Assembly (NCBI GenBank): GCA_977030845.1
Contig: OZ365111.1
Coordinates: forward strand, 49,662,001 to 49,726,000
Source: Fimbriosthenelais zetlandica
Taxonomy: Eukaryota
Direction of reading: 5' to 3'
Length of the DNA: 64,000 bases
The position numbers were made by a program. This document shows, piece by piece, positions 42,001-48,000 of this stretch (position 1 is the first letter of the stretch; every line of letters begins with the position of its first letter).

Positions 42001-45000
42001 AAATTGTGGGCCCAAAATATATTATAATATCCTTGCTGTTTTAATTTTAACATGGAAAAGTTGAGATATTAATTCTGACAAATTCACACAAATATGAGAT
42101 ATTAATTCTGACAAAATATTATATAAAGTGCAACCACCCCCAGGGCATGCCATGGGCAAATTCTGCCTTTCACGTCAGAAACCAGGGGAAATGAGCAATC
42201 TAATATAGGCCTAGGAGCTAAACATAAAGATGTTTCTAATAGCTACAGCAGATAAGCTAACTCGGTCATACGTTCCTGACATTTTGTTTTGGGTGGTTAG
42301 ACAGTGAATCATAGCGTGGTTTGGAGTAATTTATATGTTTTTAGTGACGATTTAGTGTTCAGATTAATTGTTGTATACAGTATAGAGTCTGGGTTCCTGC
42401 CAAGTGACAACACTTTGTCTGGTATTGTTTACTAAAGCACTTCATAGGCTCAAATGTATGAGAGCAACTCTCAAGTCTGACGTGCAGAAACATGTAAGAC
42501 TCAGTTTGAAATTTCTACTGTTTTTCATTGGAGAAATGCACCACAAATATCAGAAAATGTTCAATAAGTTAGTGATACAATATGAGCCCTGGAAAAAGTA
42601 ATGAAAATGACAACAAATCCTAAGAAAAATTATGACTGAAAATTCCAAAGTTATAGGGAAAGAAGGTGCATCGTGCAAAGAATGGGGCGAAAATATCATA
42701 GAAATTTCTCCTAATATAGCCTAGATTTAAAGAAATCATTTTGAGTTGAGCGAATCCATATAGGAATCGGAAATTGGATCGTTTTTTATTACAGGAATAT
42801 CAGGGCATTGGACTTGTATTCTCTTTTCACGGGGCTGGCCCAGAATTAATATGATCCATATAATAGACTATACATGTATTTGTCAACTATTAAATCGGCA
42901 AATATTCTCCCTGTATACAAAAGGAATGATATATATAAAGATGAGAAATGTGCATGTCTATAGTGTGGCAGAGAAAGAAGCCAGCATGGACCCTGGGGGC
43001 CAGCTGATATGTGTCTGAGAAACGTCAACAAGTGAAGAGGGCAGAGAAACAGGAGCCTTAAATGGATCAAGTGTGGACGGGGGGGGGGGGGTTACACTAG
43101 GCAGAGAGAGTTCCTGGATAATCTATACCACTGACAGAATAGTCTTTACATTCACCCTAAAAAGATCATATAAATGCATTTATTTCGCCAACAAGACAAG
43201 TCTAAATAGAGCACACGTCGCTTTTCTAAATCATGCATGGGACCAACGAGAATAGAAAGCTTCTTTCTATACTGATGGAACGTACCTGCTTTGATAGCTG
43301 CCCTTTTACATTGGTTTTTTTCTTATCCCTCCCCCAATGTCCCCATCTGAGATTCCATGACCTAGCAGACAGGTCTGAAGGTCGCACACTGTGACTGAGT
43401 CATCCTCGCCACAGACACTGAGACTGAAACGCTTCTAGCAAAAACTAAAAGGTCAATGTCAGAAATGGTGAAGTTGAAAGAGAACGCCCGGTTTGTGAGA
43501 TGGAAACTTGTAAATTAATAATATCAGGGTACTCTTCATGTATTCCCATTGTGAACATGAAAATGCAGACTTACCAGACTTAGTATAGTTTCTCTAGGTC
43601 CCATGTGGAGGCCTGGTCCGTTAGGTGTTGCCTGACCTAAGGTCTCTTTTGGAATAGTTCTCGGGTTTCCTGGGGGGAGGGGTTGGATTCTTACGACTGA
43701 ATCTGATTGTATGGAATGTCAAATATAACCATAGCGTGGTGACGACCACACTCACTACACAAAGAAGTCGATCCAAGTTATACTAATCTTGCGAAAACAA
43801 TGCATTTAACATAGGTATAAATATGCAGTTTCCCAATTATCGACAGGATTATAAATGTTCCTAATCCAATGTTTGACACAAAAACCTTTTCCAAAACTTT
43901 CAAAAGCTTACAGAAGAATCTTCAACCCATATAGAAGACTACAAACACAGTATACCTGTGGGCTACCCCGGAAAAGCTATATTGCTTTTCCATCTCCAAT
44001 ACTTTTTATAATGACTAACATTGCCATATTCCTGGACTTTCAGTTCTCCTAATTTAAGCGAAGGTAAGCTTATGCCTTGTACTTAATTGGTGTCCCTAAT
44101 TAGAATAATAGCTCCAGTCTCATCCAGTTATCCAAAGTAAGGTATCTACTCCTGGCACATGATCAGTCTTCTTCTCGTCGCTAATTTTCCACTATTTTCT
44201 GCGTGTATAAGCATCACTAGTGATGGGGAGAAGGAGGAGGAGGGGGTAGAGGAGGAGGGAGAAAGTGTCCCGCTGTGGCTAGAATGAGGCCTCAGCCTCT
44301 GACCCGCGGGAGCTACTCTCCCCAAAATCCATTACAAACTACCGTGGTACATAAGGCAGTGCAAGGTACGGTGGACCAAAACCTTGTAGGCTCGAAGCTT
44401 GATATTTGTGACCCATAACAATTTGTTCCATCACTTAGTTCAAAAGGAAAACATTCTAGATTAAATATTTTGACATGAAAAATAATATGTTGAATAAAAA
44501 TATAATGGAAATGTATCTTTTAATCAAAGGGAACACTAGACTTAGCTGCTAATATTTTTATTGTCATTTGATACCAAATCCATTATCAGAAATACAACAG
44601 GTTCTACGTCAGGTCCATTTCACAAACTATTTTTTCAACCAGAGACAGACAGAATCCTCCTTGAATCATGGTACAACATTAACGATCAGGGTCTTGGTCG
44701 TGCTTTGTGTCGGCACCCCTCTGTCCCGACACTGAATTTCTATCTCATATTTGCTCTTTTCGGCGTGTACAAGGGGAGCTGTTGTGCGGAGGTTGTAGGC
44801 ATATTTCATCCCTTTGATTAATACCAACTTGAACCCAGGTTCATTGATCTCACAGATTATTTCACCCTTTAAACCTTGGTCAGGGTCAAAAAGTGACAGA
44901 TGAGCGACCAGTACATCCGAGTTTGGGGTTTCCTTCACCTGAGCGACTGTGTTGAGAGCCAGTAGATTCAAACTGGGAGAATGGTCGTTCACATCCGTTA

Positions 45001-48000
45001 TATTGACCTCGATCAAAGTATCAGACTGCTTTGGGGGGTTTGCTGAATCGTTACACATAATACGGGCGCTCACTGATTTTTCAACTTCATAGTCAAAACT
45101 CTTGGCCGTGAGGATTTCATAGGAAATGAAATTTCCGTCTTGGCCACTTATTTGTTTCAGTTCAAGGTTTGGACTCTGCATAGAGCAGTTGACCTTTCCA
45201 TGGCTGACTTTATCAGTGTCGTAGACAGCAACATGTCCTACCAGAGTATTAGCAGGTTCGTTCTCGCTCACTTCCATCTGACCATTGCTACTTTGGGGGA
45301 AGGTTTGAATTATCGGGACTGCTTCATTTATATCAATGACATCAATGGTAAAGTTCTTTGACAGGCTCAGGGGAGGGTCTCCTTTGTCCGTGCAAATGAA
45401 TTCAACTTCGTATCTACTGCACTCTTCGTAATTCAGCGGTTTTATGGAGGCCAGACTGTAGTAATCAGCACCAACGTATTTCTCAACGGTGAAGTGGTTG
45501 TATGGGTCCTTGGCATGACACTCAATGCGACCAGCAATGCCAGCATCATCATCAGTCACATAGATTCTGACTGCAGTTGATCCGTAGCGAAGCTCCTCCG
45601 TGATATTGAACGGACCTGTCGGGGGCTTAATCTCGACAATCTTGGGTTTGTACTCATTTTCATCCAGGAGGTAGAGTTTAAGGGTTCGTACCGTAGACCG
45701 AGGAGTTTCCCCATGATCAGTGCAATTAATGGGTATTTTGTACATTCGCTGTTCCTCGAGGTCAAATACTTTTGTGGTTACAACCTGGTATTTATTTTGA
45801 CTCAGTTCTTCTAGGGCAAAACCTGTAGTCTTGATACTACAATTGACTTCTGCATTATGTCCTTCATCACGGTCAGCTACTAAAACCTGAGCGATAATTT
45901 GACCAGGTGGTTTATTTTCCACCATTTCAGCCATGTCATGGTACCTGGATGTACTGAGGGTAATTTGAGGGCTGTTATCATTGACATCAGTAACTATAAT
46001 GGTCAGATGGACTTCCCTTATTGGCCTTGAGCGGAGACATGAACTGAAGACCTGGATGGTAGTATTGATCATTGGTGTTACCTCACGATTAATTCCACGT
46101 CTTGTATTCATAACACCAGTCCTTGGGTTAACATAAAAGTATGATCCCAACTGTTTAAATTCGAGCTTTTCATTTTGACATCCAGGAAGACCGGTGTCAT
46201 CTAGTTTCACCATGAAGGTCCCGTGTGGTTGATTCTCTGGTAAGGTGATTGTCTGGTTGACGATCCTCGTGTCAGTACGCCGGTCAGCGGACGACAGATG
46301 GTGGGTGAGGATGAGAAGCCACGTCCAGCTAACAATTGACAGGTGTCTTACTGAAGCCATCTGAAAGACAAATTAGTTATACACCGGTTTGGTGGCTTCT
46401 TTTGACAATAAAGGCAATTACAGATAGCCAAATTGATAGCCCTGCCACCTATAGTGTATGAAGAAAAACCTCCACTCGTAGACATCGCTACTTCCGGTTT
46501 ATGTGTATTGCCATAGGTTTGAAGTGGGGAATACACAAACGGTTCACAGAAAACCTTTTCCAAATTGTGTATAATATGTCCCCTTTCCACTTTTCAGTGG
46601 ATGACAAATGCCTTTTACATTCAGTTCTGCTCACAGTACTTGCATAGAGAAGTCAATTAAATCAGCTATATTATTGATATCACTACACTTGGGTAGGCCT
46701 ACCCTGAGGCCCCATGTACTTTATTACTTTGACTAGTAAGAAACAAGAAGCGGAAATATAGCTGACTATATAGCTGAATGCTTCTGTTGCTTTAAATTGT
46801 ATTATTTTGACCATTGGGTAGCCTAATACACTACAATTAGCCTAGTGTAGCCTACTCTAAATTGCATTCAGAAAATAGTTTACGCTGCAAAAATTAGGAT
46901 AATTATGCCTATTATATCATATTGCTAAAATGATTATATAATTGATTGACAATTCTCAAGATTACCCATATATAGGACATGCTTAATGCATTTCGTCATG
47001 AATCACTAGGCCCTATATATAATAGGCTATGCACGACTATTTATATTTATAATATTGCCATGCAAATTTATTCCTGGCAAAAGTAATGGGTTCTGGAATT
47101 GGATACAATAATATAGCCCTAATTGAATGAGAAATTATGGATACGGTAGCCTACTATTCATTACCTGAGGGGTTGGGGTGGGGTGGGGTGGGTGGGGAGT
47201 AAGATTTCTTTTAGTAGTCCCCTACCAGAAAATATTCACACCGTTGTCAATTTTGAGGAAAGTTCATGTCATAAAAGAACTAACTTCTTTCCTAAATGGC
47301 GATTGAAGAAGGTGCTAGAAGTCTGAATTCAGCGATTTAATATGTTTTAGTTTTGACTTAAAACAGATAGGCTATATAATAGCTGCTAGCTCCTTGAATA
47401 GCATAAATTTCCTAAATATTTCCTAAAGGGCATGAATAAGTTCGGACTTAACACTATAGGATCTCTATGGCCTATAGGCCTATTCATTTTAATACAAAAC
47501 AGTGAAATGAATTTGTGTAAATTTGTTTAAAATGTAGGCCTAATTACGCTATTTAATATGAAAATAAATTGTCACCAGACTCAAACTCAAGAAAGGTATT
47601 ATATTAGGCCTATTCTGAAGGGATAAAACTGGAACTTACTTTAATGTTGCCAGCTTTAGCCTATACCGAGACCTGTATAAGGTTTTTGGTGTCTCATCTA
47701 CGGAAGCCCAATGTGGAGTGCCACATACTGTCCTCTAACATATGACTTTTTATTATGATGTGTAATAAATAATGTCTAGGTCTGGATTGTGGCCCCTGGG
47801 GACGAGGGTGAGATGGGGGTGGGGTGGGGGTTAGCCTTGTATAGACAATATATATCCGGAAACCAGCATATTAAAAATGCACATATTATCATTTATGATA
47901 GTCAATCATCATTCACCATTTCCATGTAAAGTAGGCCTACATTAGTAGGGTAATAGACCTATACAGGCATTGTAACTCTATCTCTAGTCTACTGGAAAAC

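What the first reader, a model, noticed from the sequence alone, without database searches (positions are those of the whole stretch)
44600..46360. Protocadherin-like ectodomain that stops after EC5 with no membrane anchor
Seen: signal peptide plus 5 EC repeats, then ...LIVNVVP-stop exactly where the next DxNDN linker should be. I found no TM-coding sequence after the stop and no convincing downstream TM exon. Several Ca2+ motifs are degenerate (INRE, DENEYKP, DINEAVP, VHAEK in EC5). Established: protocadherins normally have 6-7 EC repeats, a TM helix and a cytoplasmic tail. Inference: either a secreted or decoy cadherin (matrix or adhesive component, or competitor of membrane protocadherins) or a recently truncated gene. 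The 1.7-kb intact frame argues against long decay.
Basis: partly seen in the sequence, partly recalled or inferred. Interest (0 to 1): 0.65.

Follow-up and report, generated by a model that had tools for sequence, protein, structure and literature searches.

The report
Anchorless five-repeat cadherin in an annelid
An annelid-type genome window carries an intact gene for a cadherin-repeat protein with a signal peptide and no membrane anchor; it is built from one first-type repeat and four copies of the fourth-type repeat of protocadherins, so it is an unusual, probably secreted relative and not simply a cut-off protocadherin.

Summary
On the minus strand, 46360-44666 is one open frame of 564 codons: a signal peptide, five cadherin (EC) repeats, and a TGA one residue after the last strand of EC5. 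There is no hydrophobic tail.

The window looks annelid, not human (tektin 79% identical to Platynereis).

No other cadherin, transmembrane or tail homology was found anywhere in the 64 kb.

Ten homology-inferred donors of a neighbouring gene rank at the 86th-99.9th.

A strong acceptor (tttgtctttcag|ATG) abuts the start codon. AATAAA and ATTAAA lie 105 and 143 nt after the stop. The frame therefore looks like a terminal coding exon.

New finding: EC2-EC5 each carry a cysteine pair at the same two positions, and all four group with EC4 of protocadherins. EC1 lacks the protocadherin disulfide loop. So this is EC1 plus four EC4-type repeats, not a colinear EC1-5 truncation.

Best reading (about 0.5): a secreted cadherin-repeat protein. 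Rivals are splicing to a transmembrane-like frame 0.9 kb downstream, an intact but functionless relic, or unseen exons.

No relative closer than 31% identity was found, so conservation of the stop stays untested.

The parts
46361..46378 (-). Splice-acceptor-like tract (aactaatttgtctttcag) ending directly at the start codon. It implies a 5'-UTR intron and an upstream non-coding exon that was not located.
   Evidence: Read. Acceptor score at the 96.9th percentile of 4012 AG sites on this strand. Chance of such a site within 0-5 nt of a given ATG is about 1.2%.
44666..46360 (-). Single coding exon, 564 codons plus TGA.
46286..46360 (-). Signal peptide, about residues 1-25 (MASVRH, hydrophobic core, SSA before the likely cleavage site).
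   Evidence: Highest hydrophobicity of the protein. Helix at residues 7-22 with low pLDDT ahead of EC1. The cleavage site is read by the -3/-1 rule (recalled); no predictor was run.
45965..46264 (-). EC1 (about residues 33-132), first-repeat type, without the protocadherin Cys-X5-Cys loop.
45641..45964 (-). EC2 (about residues 133-240), EC4-type, Cys174/Cys213.
45314..45640 (-). EC3 (about residues 241-349), EC4-type, Cys281/Cys323.
44975..45313 (-). EC4 (about residues 350-462), EC4-type, Cys392/Cys436.
44669..44974 (-). EC5 (about residues 463-564), EC4-type, Cys503/Cys544. A complete fold that ends before any linker motif.
44666..44668 (-). Stop codon TGA.
44669..44677 (-).
   Evidence: 30th percentile of 3396 GT sites on this strand. 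Ten inferred SLC6 donors score at the 86th-99.9th percentile.
44557..44562 (-). AATAAA, 105 nt after the stop.
   Evidence: Such hexamers occur 1.84 times per kb per strand, so this is weak support.
44519..44524 (-). ATTAAA, 143 nt after the stop.
43624..43782 (-). Open frame of 53 codons with an 18-residue uncharged hydrophobic stretch followed by a basic tail. It is a candidate membrane-anchor exon, unverified.
   Evidence: One of 6 such frames among 2150. No Pfam family. Profile E-value 46. Acceptor at the 67th percentile. Codon score ranks 138 of 588.

Best explanation
This is a transcription unit with a 5'-UTR intron and one 1.7-kb terminal coding exon. The product enters the secretory pathway, loses a signal peptide of about 25 residues, and leaves the cell as a free, N-glycosylated, calcium-stiffened rod of five cadherin repeats.

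The rod has one EC1-type repeat followed by four anciently duplicated EC4-type repeats. Each EC4-type repeat is probably stapled by a disulfide between strands C and F.

Shown:
- the open frame, the five folds, and the missing anchor within the frame;
- the poor donor at the end and the strong acceptor at the start;
- the EC4-type identity of the repeats and their cysteine pairs.

Inferred:
- secretion, the disulfides and calcium binding;
- that the protein works outside the cell by binding itself or membrane cadherins. In protocadherins EC1 meets EC4 in the adhesive dimer.
For: The frame and the fold:
- An intact 564-codon frame with codon usage like that of two neighbouring genes (+0.12 bits per codon).
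- Five confident EC folds, with the chain ending one residue after the last strand.
- The best fold matches are protocadherin ectodomains (gamma-B2 EC1-5, TM 0.72 by target).

No continuation in the window:
- phmmer of the protein against 1633 frames of 25 or more residues gave nothing better than E 0.37 outside the ORF.
- tblastn of 120 homologs gave a best outside hit of E 0.028.
- An 892-position profile of 120 full-length relatives against 2150 frames gave a best outside hit of E 2.7.
- Pfam on 150 and 149 further frames found no Cadherin.

Splice and 3'-end signals:
- All three phase-0 GT sites at the end rank at the 17th-30th percentile.
- 10 of 10 homology-inferred donors of the SLC6 gene in the same window rank at the 86th-99.9th percentile.
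- An acceptor at the 96.9th percentile abuts the ATG.
- AATAAA and ATTAAA lie 105 and 143 nt after the stop.

Long-standing constraint:
- Four repeats that are only 17-28% identical to each other all keep a cysteine pair in the same two profile columns.
- That pair occurs in 34 of 5741 repeats from 271 proteins, 4 of them here.
- The acidic calcium ligands of all four linkers are kept.
Against: - No transcript data, and no relative above 31% identity. Use and conservation of the stop are therefore untested.
- EC5 keeps the glutamate of the X-E-X motif (KET), and perhaps the D-x-E glutamate. These serve a following linker, so another repeat may once have followed.
- A helix-plus-basic-tail frame lies 0.9 kb downstream in a compatible phase.
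- The protein keeps only 61 of 105 columns that are at least 90% conserved in its relatives. The next-lowest rows keep 80-89%.
- Each of EC1-EC4 keeps 9-11, and EC5 4, of 18 consensus positions, against a median of 15. This could mean relaxed constraint rather than distance.
- Poly(A) hexamers this close to the stop are expected by chance about one time in four.
- The donor matrix is a generic one recalled from memory. The acceptor score is a simple pyrimidine count of my own. Only the donor scoring was checked against independently inferred sites, and only in one gene; the SLC6 acceptors were picked as the best AG nearby.
Confidence: 0.5

Rival explanations
1. The protein is membrane-anchored after all. 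The weak phase-0 donor at 44674 is spliced over an intron of about 890 nt to the frame at 43782-43624. That adds five residues, an 18-residue helix and a basic tail of about 30 residues, giving a type I five-repeat cadherin, possibly alongside a secreted read-through form.
For: - Only 6 of 2150 frames in the window (128 kb of strand sequence) have an uncharged hydrophobic 18-mer followed by three or more basic residues. One of them lies 884-1040 nt downstream on the right strand. At least 3 of the other 5 belong to real membrane-protein genes.
- The frame opens exactly at a TAG|, which fits phase 0.
- The stop comes two codons after the would-be junction, as happens when an exon reads into its intron.
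Against: - The donor is at the 30th percentile and lacks G at position -1. Inferred real donors rank at the 86th-99.9th percentile.
- The acceptor is at the 67th percentile, with a purine-rich tract.
- The codon score is unremarkable, rank 138 of 588.
- No family or profile match.
- The search criteria were set after the frame had been seen.
- Only five residues would separate EC5 from the membrane.
Confidence: 0.12
2. It is an intact but functionless relic: a partial copy or truncation of a longer cadherin gene that lost its 3' exons at an old exon-intron junction and has not yet picked up disabling mutations.
For: - The end falls exactly at a repeat boundary, where introns of cadherin genes often lie (recalled). 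Two read-through codons then lead to a stop.
- EC5 keeps residues that serve a following linker.
- Retention of family-conserved positions is low.
- No orthologue was found in very large protein sets.
Against: - 1.7 kb remains open, with all five folds predicted confidently.
- Eight cysteines are kept in register across four old repeats, and the calcium ligands are kept too. This shows long constraint on the repeats, though not on the present 3' end.
- A strong acceptor sits at the start codon.
- No parental copy lies in the window.
Confidence: 0.2
3. Further coding exons exist but escaped detection. They could be short, fast-evolving anchor or tail exons elsewhere in the window reached through an unconventional donor, or exons beyond the window's end. 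In that case the tektin, GPCR and other genes would sit inside a giant intron.
For: - Homology searches cannot see a lone helix or a novel tail.
- Intronless genes nested in long introns are common in animals (recalled).
- The neighbouring SLC6 gene shows that this genome is intron-rich.
Against: - No usable donor lies near the end of the frame.
- Plus-strand genes (UNC-93-like exons at 31.6 and 36.8 kb, tektin at 26-27.5 kb) fill the downstream space.
- No EC homology occurs anywhere in the 44.6 kb downstream.
Confidence: 0.1
4. The stop or the sequence just after it is an assembly or sequencing error in a longer open frame.
For: Nothing specific. It cannot be excluded without reads.
Against: None of the three frames after the stop shows any cadherin-like continuation. 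The nearest run of N is 19 kb away.
Confidence: 0.03

Closest known systems
Clustered and delta (non-clustered) protocadherins
   Same: - Best sequence and fold matches.
- The predicted ectodomain superposes on solved protocadherin EC1-5 fragments (TM 0.72 by target).
- All repeats are encoded in one large exon.
- An EC1-type first repeat.
- The EC4-specific strand-C cysteine, present in EC4 of 79 of 95 six-repeat and 8 of 8 seven-repeat relatives.
   Different: - Five repeats, not six or seven.
- Four of the five are EC4-type instead of a colinear EC1-EC6/7 series.
- No Cys-X5-Cys loop in EC1. [quoted passage not shown]
- No helix or tail in the frame.
- Only 22-29% identity.
T-cadherin (CDH13), the five-repeat cadherin without helix or tail
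   Same: Five EC repeats and no transmembrane or cytoplasmic part. T-cadherin is described as GPI-anchored in the abstracts of PMC12891605 and PMC3731280 (listing).
   Different: - T-cadherin is a classical-type cadherin held on the membrane by a GPI anchor.
- This frame ends ...TLIVNVVP, with no hydrophobic GPI signal.
- Its repeats are protocadherin-like.
Secreted protocadherin isoforms made by an alternative last exon (mouse Pcdh15)
   Same: An anchorless protocadherin ectodomain arises when the message ends early. Passages of PMC6909182 describe a membrane-to-secreted conversion for Pcdh15.
   Different: There the secreted form is a minor isoform of a gene with known anchor exons. Here no anchor exon is established and no transcripts are available.
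Seven-repeat protocadherin-like proteins of invertebrates (for example the Paralvinella palmiformis entry named Protocadherin-20, P0071, and unnamed entries P0073, P0091, P0092, P0007, P0105, P0088)
   Same: They carry the same cysteine pair in the same two columns, but only in EC4. Their EC4 repeats form one clade with EC2-EC5 of this protein (99/96).
   Different: They have about 890-975 residues, a colinear series of repeats, the EC1 loop, and further C-terminal sequence. Identity to this protein is 21-25%.

Membership tests
Cadherin superfamily | Tandem EC repeats of about 110 residues with the seven-strand fold | tested here: met
   Pfam Cadherin, 5 stretches, E 3.8e-52. The AlphaFold2 model has five sandwiches, pLDDT 88.5. 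Foldseek hits are cadherin ectodomains.
Cadherin superfamily | Calcium-binding linker motifs (X-E-X, D-x-E, D-x-N-D-N, D-x-D) | tested here: met
   All four linkers keep D100 and N102. D103 is D, E, E, D. D-x-D is present in EC2-EC5. Glutamate 11 is present in all five repeats. The substitutions are conservative. Actual binding was not tested.
Protocadherins (clustered / delta) | Disulfide loop (Cys-X5-Cys or longer) between strands E and F of EC1 | tested here: not met
   Both cysteine columns are filled in 88 of the 90 aligned rows, and this protein has no residue there. After INRE it reads VTPMINTTIQ. The feature is described in passages of PMC6769022.
Protocadherins (clustered / delta) | Six or seven repeats, each the positional counterpart of EC1...EC6/7 | tested here: not met
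   There are five repeats. EC2-EC5 group with EC4 (99/96). AU rejects EC5-with-EC5 (p 0.014) and EC3-with-EC3 (p 0.025) but not EC2-with-EC2 (p 0.33). The tests were named after the tree had been seen.
Protocadherins (clustered / delta) | Single-pass transmembrane helix and cytoplasmic tail | tested here: inconclusive
   None within the frame, and no homologous one in the window. One unverified helix-like frame lies 0.9 kb downstream.
Protocadherins (clustered / delta) | Whole ectodomain encoded by one large exon (recalled family trait) | tested here: met
   1.7 kb without interruption, in a window where the SLC6 gene has at least 11 exons, each in an open frame of 51-110 codons.
GPI-anchored cadherins (T-cadherin type) | C-terminal hydrophobic GPI-attachment signal | tested here: not met
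   The last 20 residues are polar or strand-forming, with no hydrophobic tail. The highest hydrophobicity outside the signal peptide is 0.85. No GPI predictor was available.
Secreted isoform by alternative 3' end (Pcdh15 type) | A longer anchored isoform from the same gene | not testable with these tools
   No transcript data and no related genomic loci could be reached.

The most novel reading that the evidence does not exclude
A secreted, disulfide-stapled array of four EC4-type repeats headed by one EC1 acts as a soluble multivalent partner in protocadherin-type recognition. In protocadherin adhesive dimers EC1 docks on EC4. Such a protein could therefore cap the EC1 of membrane protocadherins, blocking or tuning adhesion. 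It could also chain head-to-tail (EC1 of one molecule on an EC4-type repeat of the next) into an extracellular cadherin polymer or matrix. That would be a role for cadherin repeats outside cell-cell junctions that arose by repeat amplification in annelids.
Probability: 0.1. Interest if true: 0.7.

Novelty: new variant of a known kind. Interest (0 to 1): 0.42.

Why it matters
Cadherins are normally studied as membrane-anchored adhesion receptors. A gene-encoded, anchorless cadherin made mostly of amplified EC4-type repeats would show two things: that the repeat used as the docking surface in protocadherin dimers can be multiplied, and that it can be released from the cell. It would give a simple test case for soluble modulation of protocadherin-type adhesion outside vertebrates.

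The regular cysteine pair in four repeats is also a ready-made natural example of a stabilised cadherin fold.

If the gene proves to be a relic, or to be spliced to an anchor, the interest falls to that of an odd lineage-specific cadherin.

Tried and rejected
- **Close relatives.** The near-length search gave at best 29% identity among the 120 listed. The exhaustive representative search listed only giant FAT-like cadherins at 24-31%. A search for short fragments matching residues 380-564 found none (27 candidates). The feature-based atlas search returned only generic cadherin clusters. So no orthologue, no dN/dS and no test of stop conservation.
- **Recurring tblastn hit at 6919-6969.** It proved to be a chance match in a frame with no cadherin character.
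- **Repeats or mobile elements around the gene.** None were found in 40-50 kb or by self-BLAST of 42-48.5 kb, apart from a 42-nt palindrome at 48381-48421. A transposon-insertion origin of the truncation is not supported.
- **Retrocopy origin.** There is no poly(A) tract after the 3' signals, and an intron acceptor sits at the ATG. This reading was not favoured.
- **Codon-usage scoring of the transmembrane-like frame.** Uninformative.
- **Global MAFFT alignment with six- and seven-repeat relatives.** It put a large gap inside EC1. I therefore switched to repeat-by-repeat profile alignment. The 61-of-105 figure rests on the global alignment and should be read with that in mind.
- **Self-association test** (two copies of residues 30-462). 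The complex tool's queue was full at every attempt, so no job ran and nothing was learned.
- **Literature.** The search 'secreted cadherin' plus 'transmembrane' found 0 papers. The searches gave nothing on anchorless cadherins of annelids. Searches were passages only and irrelevant.
- **Not done or not seen.** Supplementary files were not consulted; gene lists there could name such proteins. The joined exon model (main exon plus the transmembrane-like frame) was not built, translated or searched; each piece was searched separately.

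
Full report
**What is there.** The finding lies on the minus strand. From ATG at 46360 to TGA at 44666-44668 there is one uninterrupted frame of 564 codons. It is the longest in the window. The next two, of 509 and 445 codons, are a tektin and a GPCR, and all others have 150 codons or fewer. Pfam finds five Cadherin stretches (E 3.8e-52) and a below-cutoff FAT4-type N-terminal repeat match. Solved-structure sequences give CELSR1 and protocadherins as best hits. 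An AlphaFold2 model built on a 90-row alignment has mean pLDDT 88.5. It shows an N-terminal helix (residues 7-22) followed by five complete seven-strand sandwiches, and the last strand is 553-563 of 564. Foldseek puts it on protocadherin ectodomains (gamma-B2 EC1-5, TM 0.72 by target).

Linker motifs stand at residues 125, 233, 343 and 456, and the stop is at 565. In a repeat profile, EC5 stops at position 99 of 107, so only the linker is missing. There is no hydrophobic segment after the signal peptide and no GPI-type tail. The 'degenerate' motifs are mild substitutions, and the acidic ligands of all four linkers are kept.

**Whose genome.** The intronless tektin at 25963-27489 is 79% identical to the Platynereis dumerilii tektin 3/5A, 74% to those of Dimorphilus and Owenia, and about 54% to vertebrate tektin-3. 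I take the window for an annelid, not human. The run of N at 25080-25247 was left alone.

**Does the frame continue?** Four kinds of search found no further cadherin, helix or tail homology anywhere in the 64 kb:
- phmmer of the protein against 1633 frames of 25 or more residues: best outside hit E 0.37;
- tblastn of 120 homologs: 239 of 597 matches lie outside the gene, the best at E 0.028, and a recurring one at 6919-6969 is a chance match;
- an 892-position profile of 120 full-length relatives against all 2150 frames of 20 or more residues: best outside hit E 2.7;
- Pfam on 150 of the 192 frames of 52 or more residues in 27.5-64 kb and on 149 frames in 1-20.8 kb: no Cadherin.

The downstream space holds other genes: UNC-93-like exons on the plus strand at 31.6 and 36.8 kb, the tektin, and a GPCR.

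**Splice signals.** I scored donors with a generic metazoan matrix written from memory and calibrated it inside the window. The SLC6 transporter gene at 8465-16413 has 11 exon-bearing frames that tile the Pfam SNF profile. Ten donors inferred from those tiles rank at the 86th-99.9th percentile of all GT sites. The two other phase-0 GT sites at the end rank at the 17th and 23rd. So the proposed donor is not supported.

At the other end, the start codon is directly preceded by aactaatttgtctttcag. This is an acceptor at the 96.9th percentile of 4012 AG sites. The chance of one that good within 0-5 nt of a given ATG is about 1.2%. The frame thus looks like a last exon: it is entered by splicing from an unlocated 5'-UTR exon and left by polyadenylation. 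AATAAA and ATTAAA follow the stop at 105 and 143 nt, but at 1.84 such hexamers per kb this is weak support.

**A lead against the secreted reading.** At 43624-43782, on the same strand, a 53-codon frame encodes five residues, an 18-residue uncharged hydrophobic stretch and a basic tail. Only 6 of the 2150 frames in the window have such a pattern, and at least three of the other five belong to real membrane-protein genes. The frame opens at a TAG| that fits the phase-0 donor.

Against it:
- the donor is poor;
- the acceptor is at the 67th percentile and purine-rich;
- codon usage is unremarkable, rank 138 of 588;
- there is no family or profile match;
- my criteria were chosen after seeing the frame.

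Each was searched on its own, and the joined step was left out.

**What kind of cadherin.** This is the main new result. In a profile alignment of 5741 EC repeats from 271 proteins, Cys174, 281, 392 and 503 fall in one column (strand C). Cys213, 323, 436 and 544 fall in another (strand F). Both cysteines together occur in 34 of the 5741 repeats, against about 7 expected if the two were independent. Four of the 34 are in this protein. In its relatives the pair occurs once per protein, always in the fourth detected repeat, which is EC4 wherever all repeats were detected.

The strand-C cysteine alone marks EC4 in 79 of 95 six-repeat and 8 of 8 seven-repeat relatives. It occurs in no EC1, EC2, EC5, EC6 or EC7. 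Solved mouse gamma-protocadherin EC4 repeats show it aligned to Cys392.

With both cysteine columns removed:
- EC2, EC3 and EC5 are most similar to EC4 of the 95 six-repeat proteins (31.5, 29.3 and 29.7%);
- EC4 ties between EC3 and EC4 (27.4 and 27.2%);
- all four are closest to EC4 of the eight seven-repeat proteins;
- a control protein matches its positional counterparts instead.

A maximum-likelihood tree of 47 repeats was built from the five here and the seven of each of six seven-repeat proteins, with the cysteine columns dropped. It puts EC2-EC5 and the six EC4 in one clade (99/96) and EC1 among the EC1 group (98/83). AU tests reject EC5-with-EC5 (p 0.014) and EC3-with-EC3 (p 0.025) but not EC2-with-EC2 (p 0.33).

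Caveats:
- the query branches are long;
- the tests were framed after the tree had been seen;
- only six of the eight proteins with seven detected repeats were used;
- when each query repeat is placed alone, its nearest rows are EC4 in 4 of 4 cases, but a starred branch appears only for EC4.

EC1 lacks the Cys-X5-Cys loop that 88 of the 90 aligned rows have. [quoted passage not shown] The four EC4-type repeats are only 17-28% identical to one another, so the amplification is old.

**Consequences for the interpretation.** The protein is not a colinear EC1-EC5 from which EC6, helix and tail were cut. It is an EC1 followed by four EC4-type repeats. That eight cysteines and the calcium ligands are kept in register across old repeats argues for long purifying selection on an extracellular protein. 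It does not date the loss, or the absence, of an anchor.

Two observations leave room for a lost continuation:
- the chain ends exactly at a repeat boundary, with two extra codons before the stop;
- EC5 still has the X-E-X glutamate that normally serves a following linker.

The protein also keeps fewer family-conserved positions than any relative: 61 of 105, against 80-89% for the next-lowest rows. Each of EC1-EC4 keeps 9-11, and EC5 4, of 18 consensus positions, against a median of 15. This may reflect distance or relaxed constraint. The first figure rests on a global alignment that mis-registers EC1.

**Relatives.** None is closer than 31% identity:
- the near-length search gave 382 hits, the 120 listed at 22-29% identity and 645-986 residues;
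- the exhaustive representative search gave 8130 hits, the 150 listed at 24-31%, all giant multi-repeat cadherins;
- no short fragments matched the C-terminal third;
- the feature atlas gave generic cadherin clusters only.

Stop conservation and dN/dS are therefore untested.

**Mechanism proposed.** Most likely (about 0.5) the gene makes a secreted, glycosylated (nine N-x-S/T sequons), calcium-stiffened five-repeat rod. Four of its repeats would be stapled by a C-F disulfide. In protocadherins the adhesive dimer is an antiparallel EC1-EC4 overlap (passages of PMC6769022). A free molecule with one EC1 and four EC4-type surfaces could therefore bind itself head-to-tail, or occupy EC1 of membrane protocadherins. 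This step is inference. The self-association prediction could not be run because the tool's queue stayed full.

Known parallels:
- T-cadherin: five repeats, no helix, but GPI-anchored (abstracts of PMC12891605 and PMC3731280, in the listing);
- secreted Pcdh15 made by an alternative last exon (passages of PMC6909182).

**Rivals.**
- Splicing to the transmembrane-like frame: 0.12.
- An intact relic: 0.2.
- Undetected exons: 0.1.
- Assembly error: 0.03.

**Verdict.** This is a new variant of a known kind: an anchorless cadherin-repeat protein of unusual repeat composition. It is of moderate interest and needs transcripts and sister-species loci to settle the 3' end.

Noticed in passing
window 8465-16413, + strand: A multi-exon SLC6 (sodium:neurotransmitter symporter) gene. 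Eleven frames tile the Pfam SNF profile from position 1 to 523, with one stretch (about 442-472) not found. I used it to calibrate splice-site scores.
   Followed up: partly
window 25963-27489, + strand: An intronless tektin-3/5-type frame of 509 codons (Pfam Tektin, E 9.6e-142), 79% identical to a Platynereis tektin. It sits in a 2-kb bin of 50% G+C against about 38% around it, in a window where the SLC6 gene has many short exons. It may be a retrogene. A 168-base run of N lies about 700 bases upstream and was left alone.
   Followed up: partly
window 20812-22146, - strand: An intronless rhodopsin-type GPCR frame of 445 codons (Pfam Srw E 4.7e-16, 7tm_1 E 7.2e-09).
   Followed up: no
window 31603-31872 and 36780-37040, + strand; also 33118-33483 and 37877-38272: Two tandem copies of UNC-93-like exons (Pfam E 6.9e-07 and 1.8e-04). 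Each is followed about 1 kb later by a near-identical membrane-helix frame, so a local gene duplication of about 5 kb is likely.
   Followed up: no
window 17432-17502, - strand: Rfam calls a tRNA just above its gathering score (32.7 against 29 bits). ARAGORN found no tRNA in 17000-18000, so it may be a degenerate or tRNA-derived element.
   Followed up: partly
window 48381-48421: A 42-nt perfect-to-near-perfect palindrome (95% self-complementary), 2 kb upstream of the cadherin gene.
   Followed up: no
proteins P0071, P0073, P0091, P0092, P0007, P0105, P0088 and some fish protocadherins (P0081, P0084, P0094, P0111, P0117, P0011, P0028, P0038): Seven-repeat invertebrate-type protocadherins and some fish clustered-type ones carry a cysteine pair (strands C and F) specifically in EC4. 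Most vertebrate relatives keep only the strand-C cysteine. This points to an ancestral EC4 disulfide that was later lost on one side.
   Followed up: partly
protein P0168 (3037 residues): This entry repeats the EC1-EC6 pattern, including the EC4 cysteine pair, four times. It is probably a run-together gene model of a tandem protocadherin cluster.
   Followed up: no
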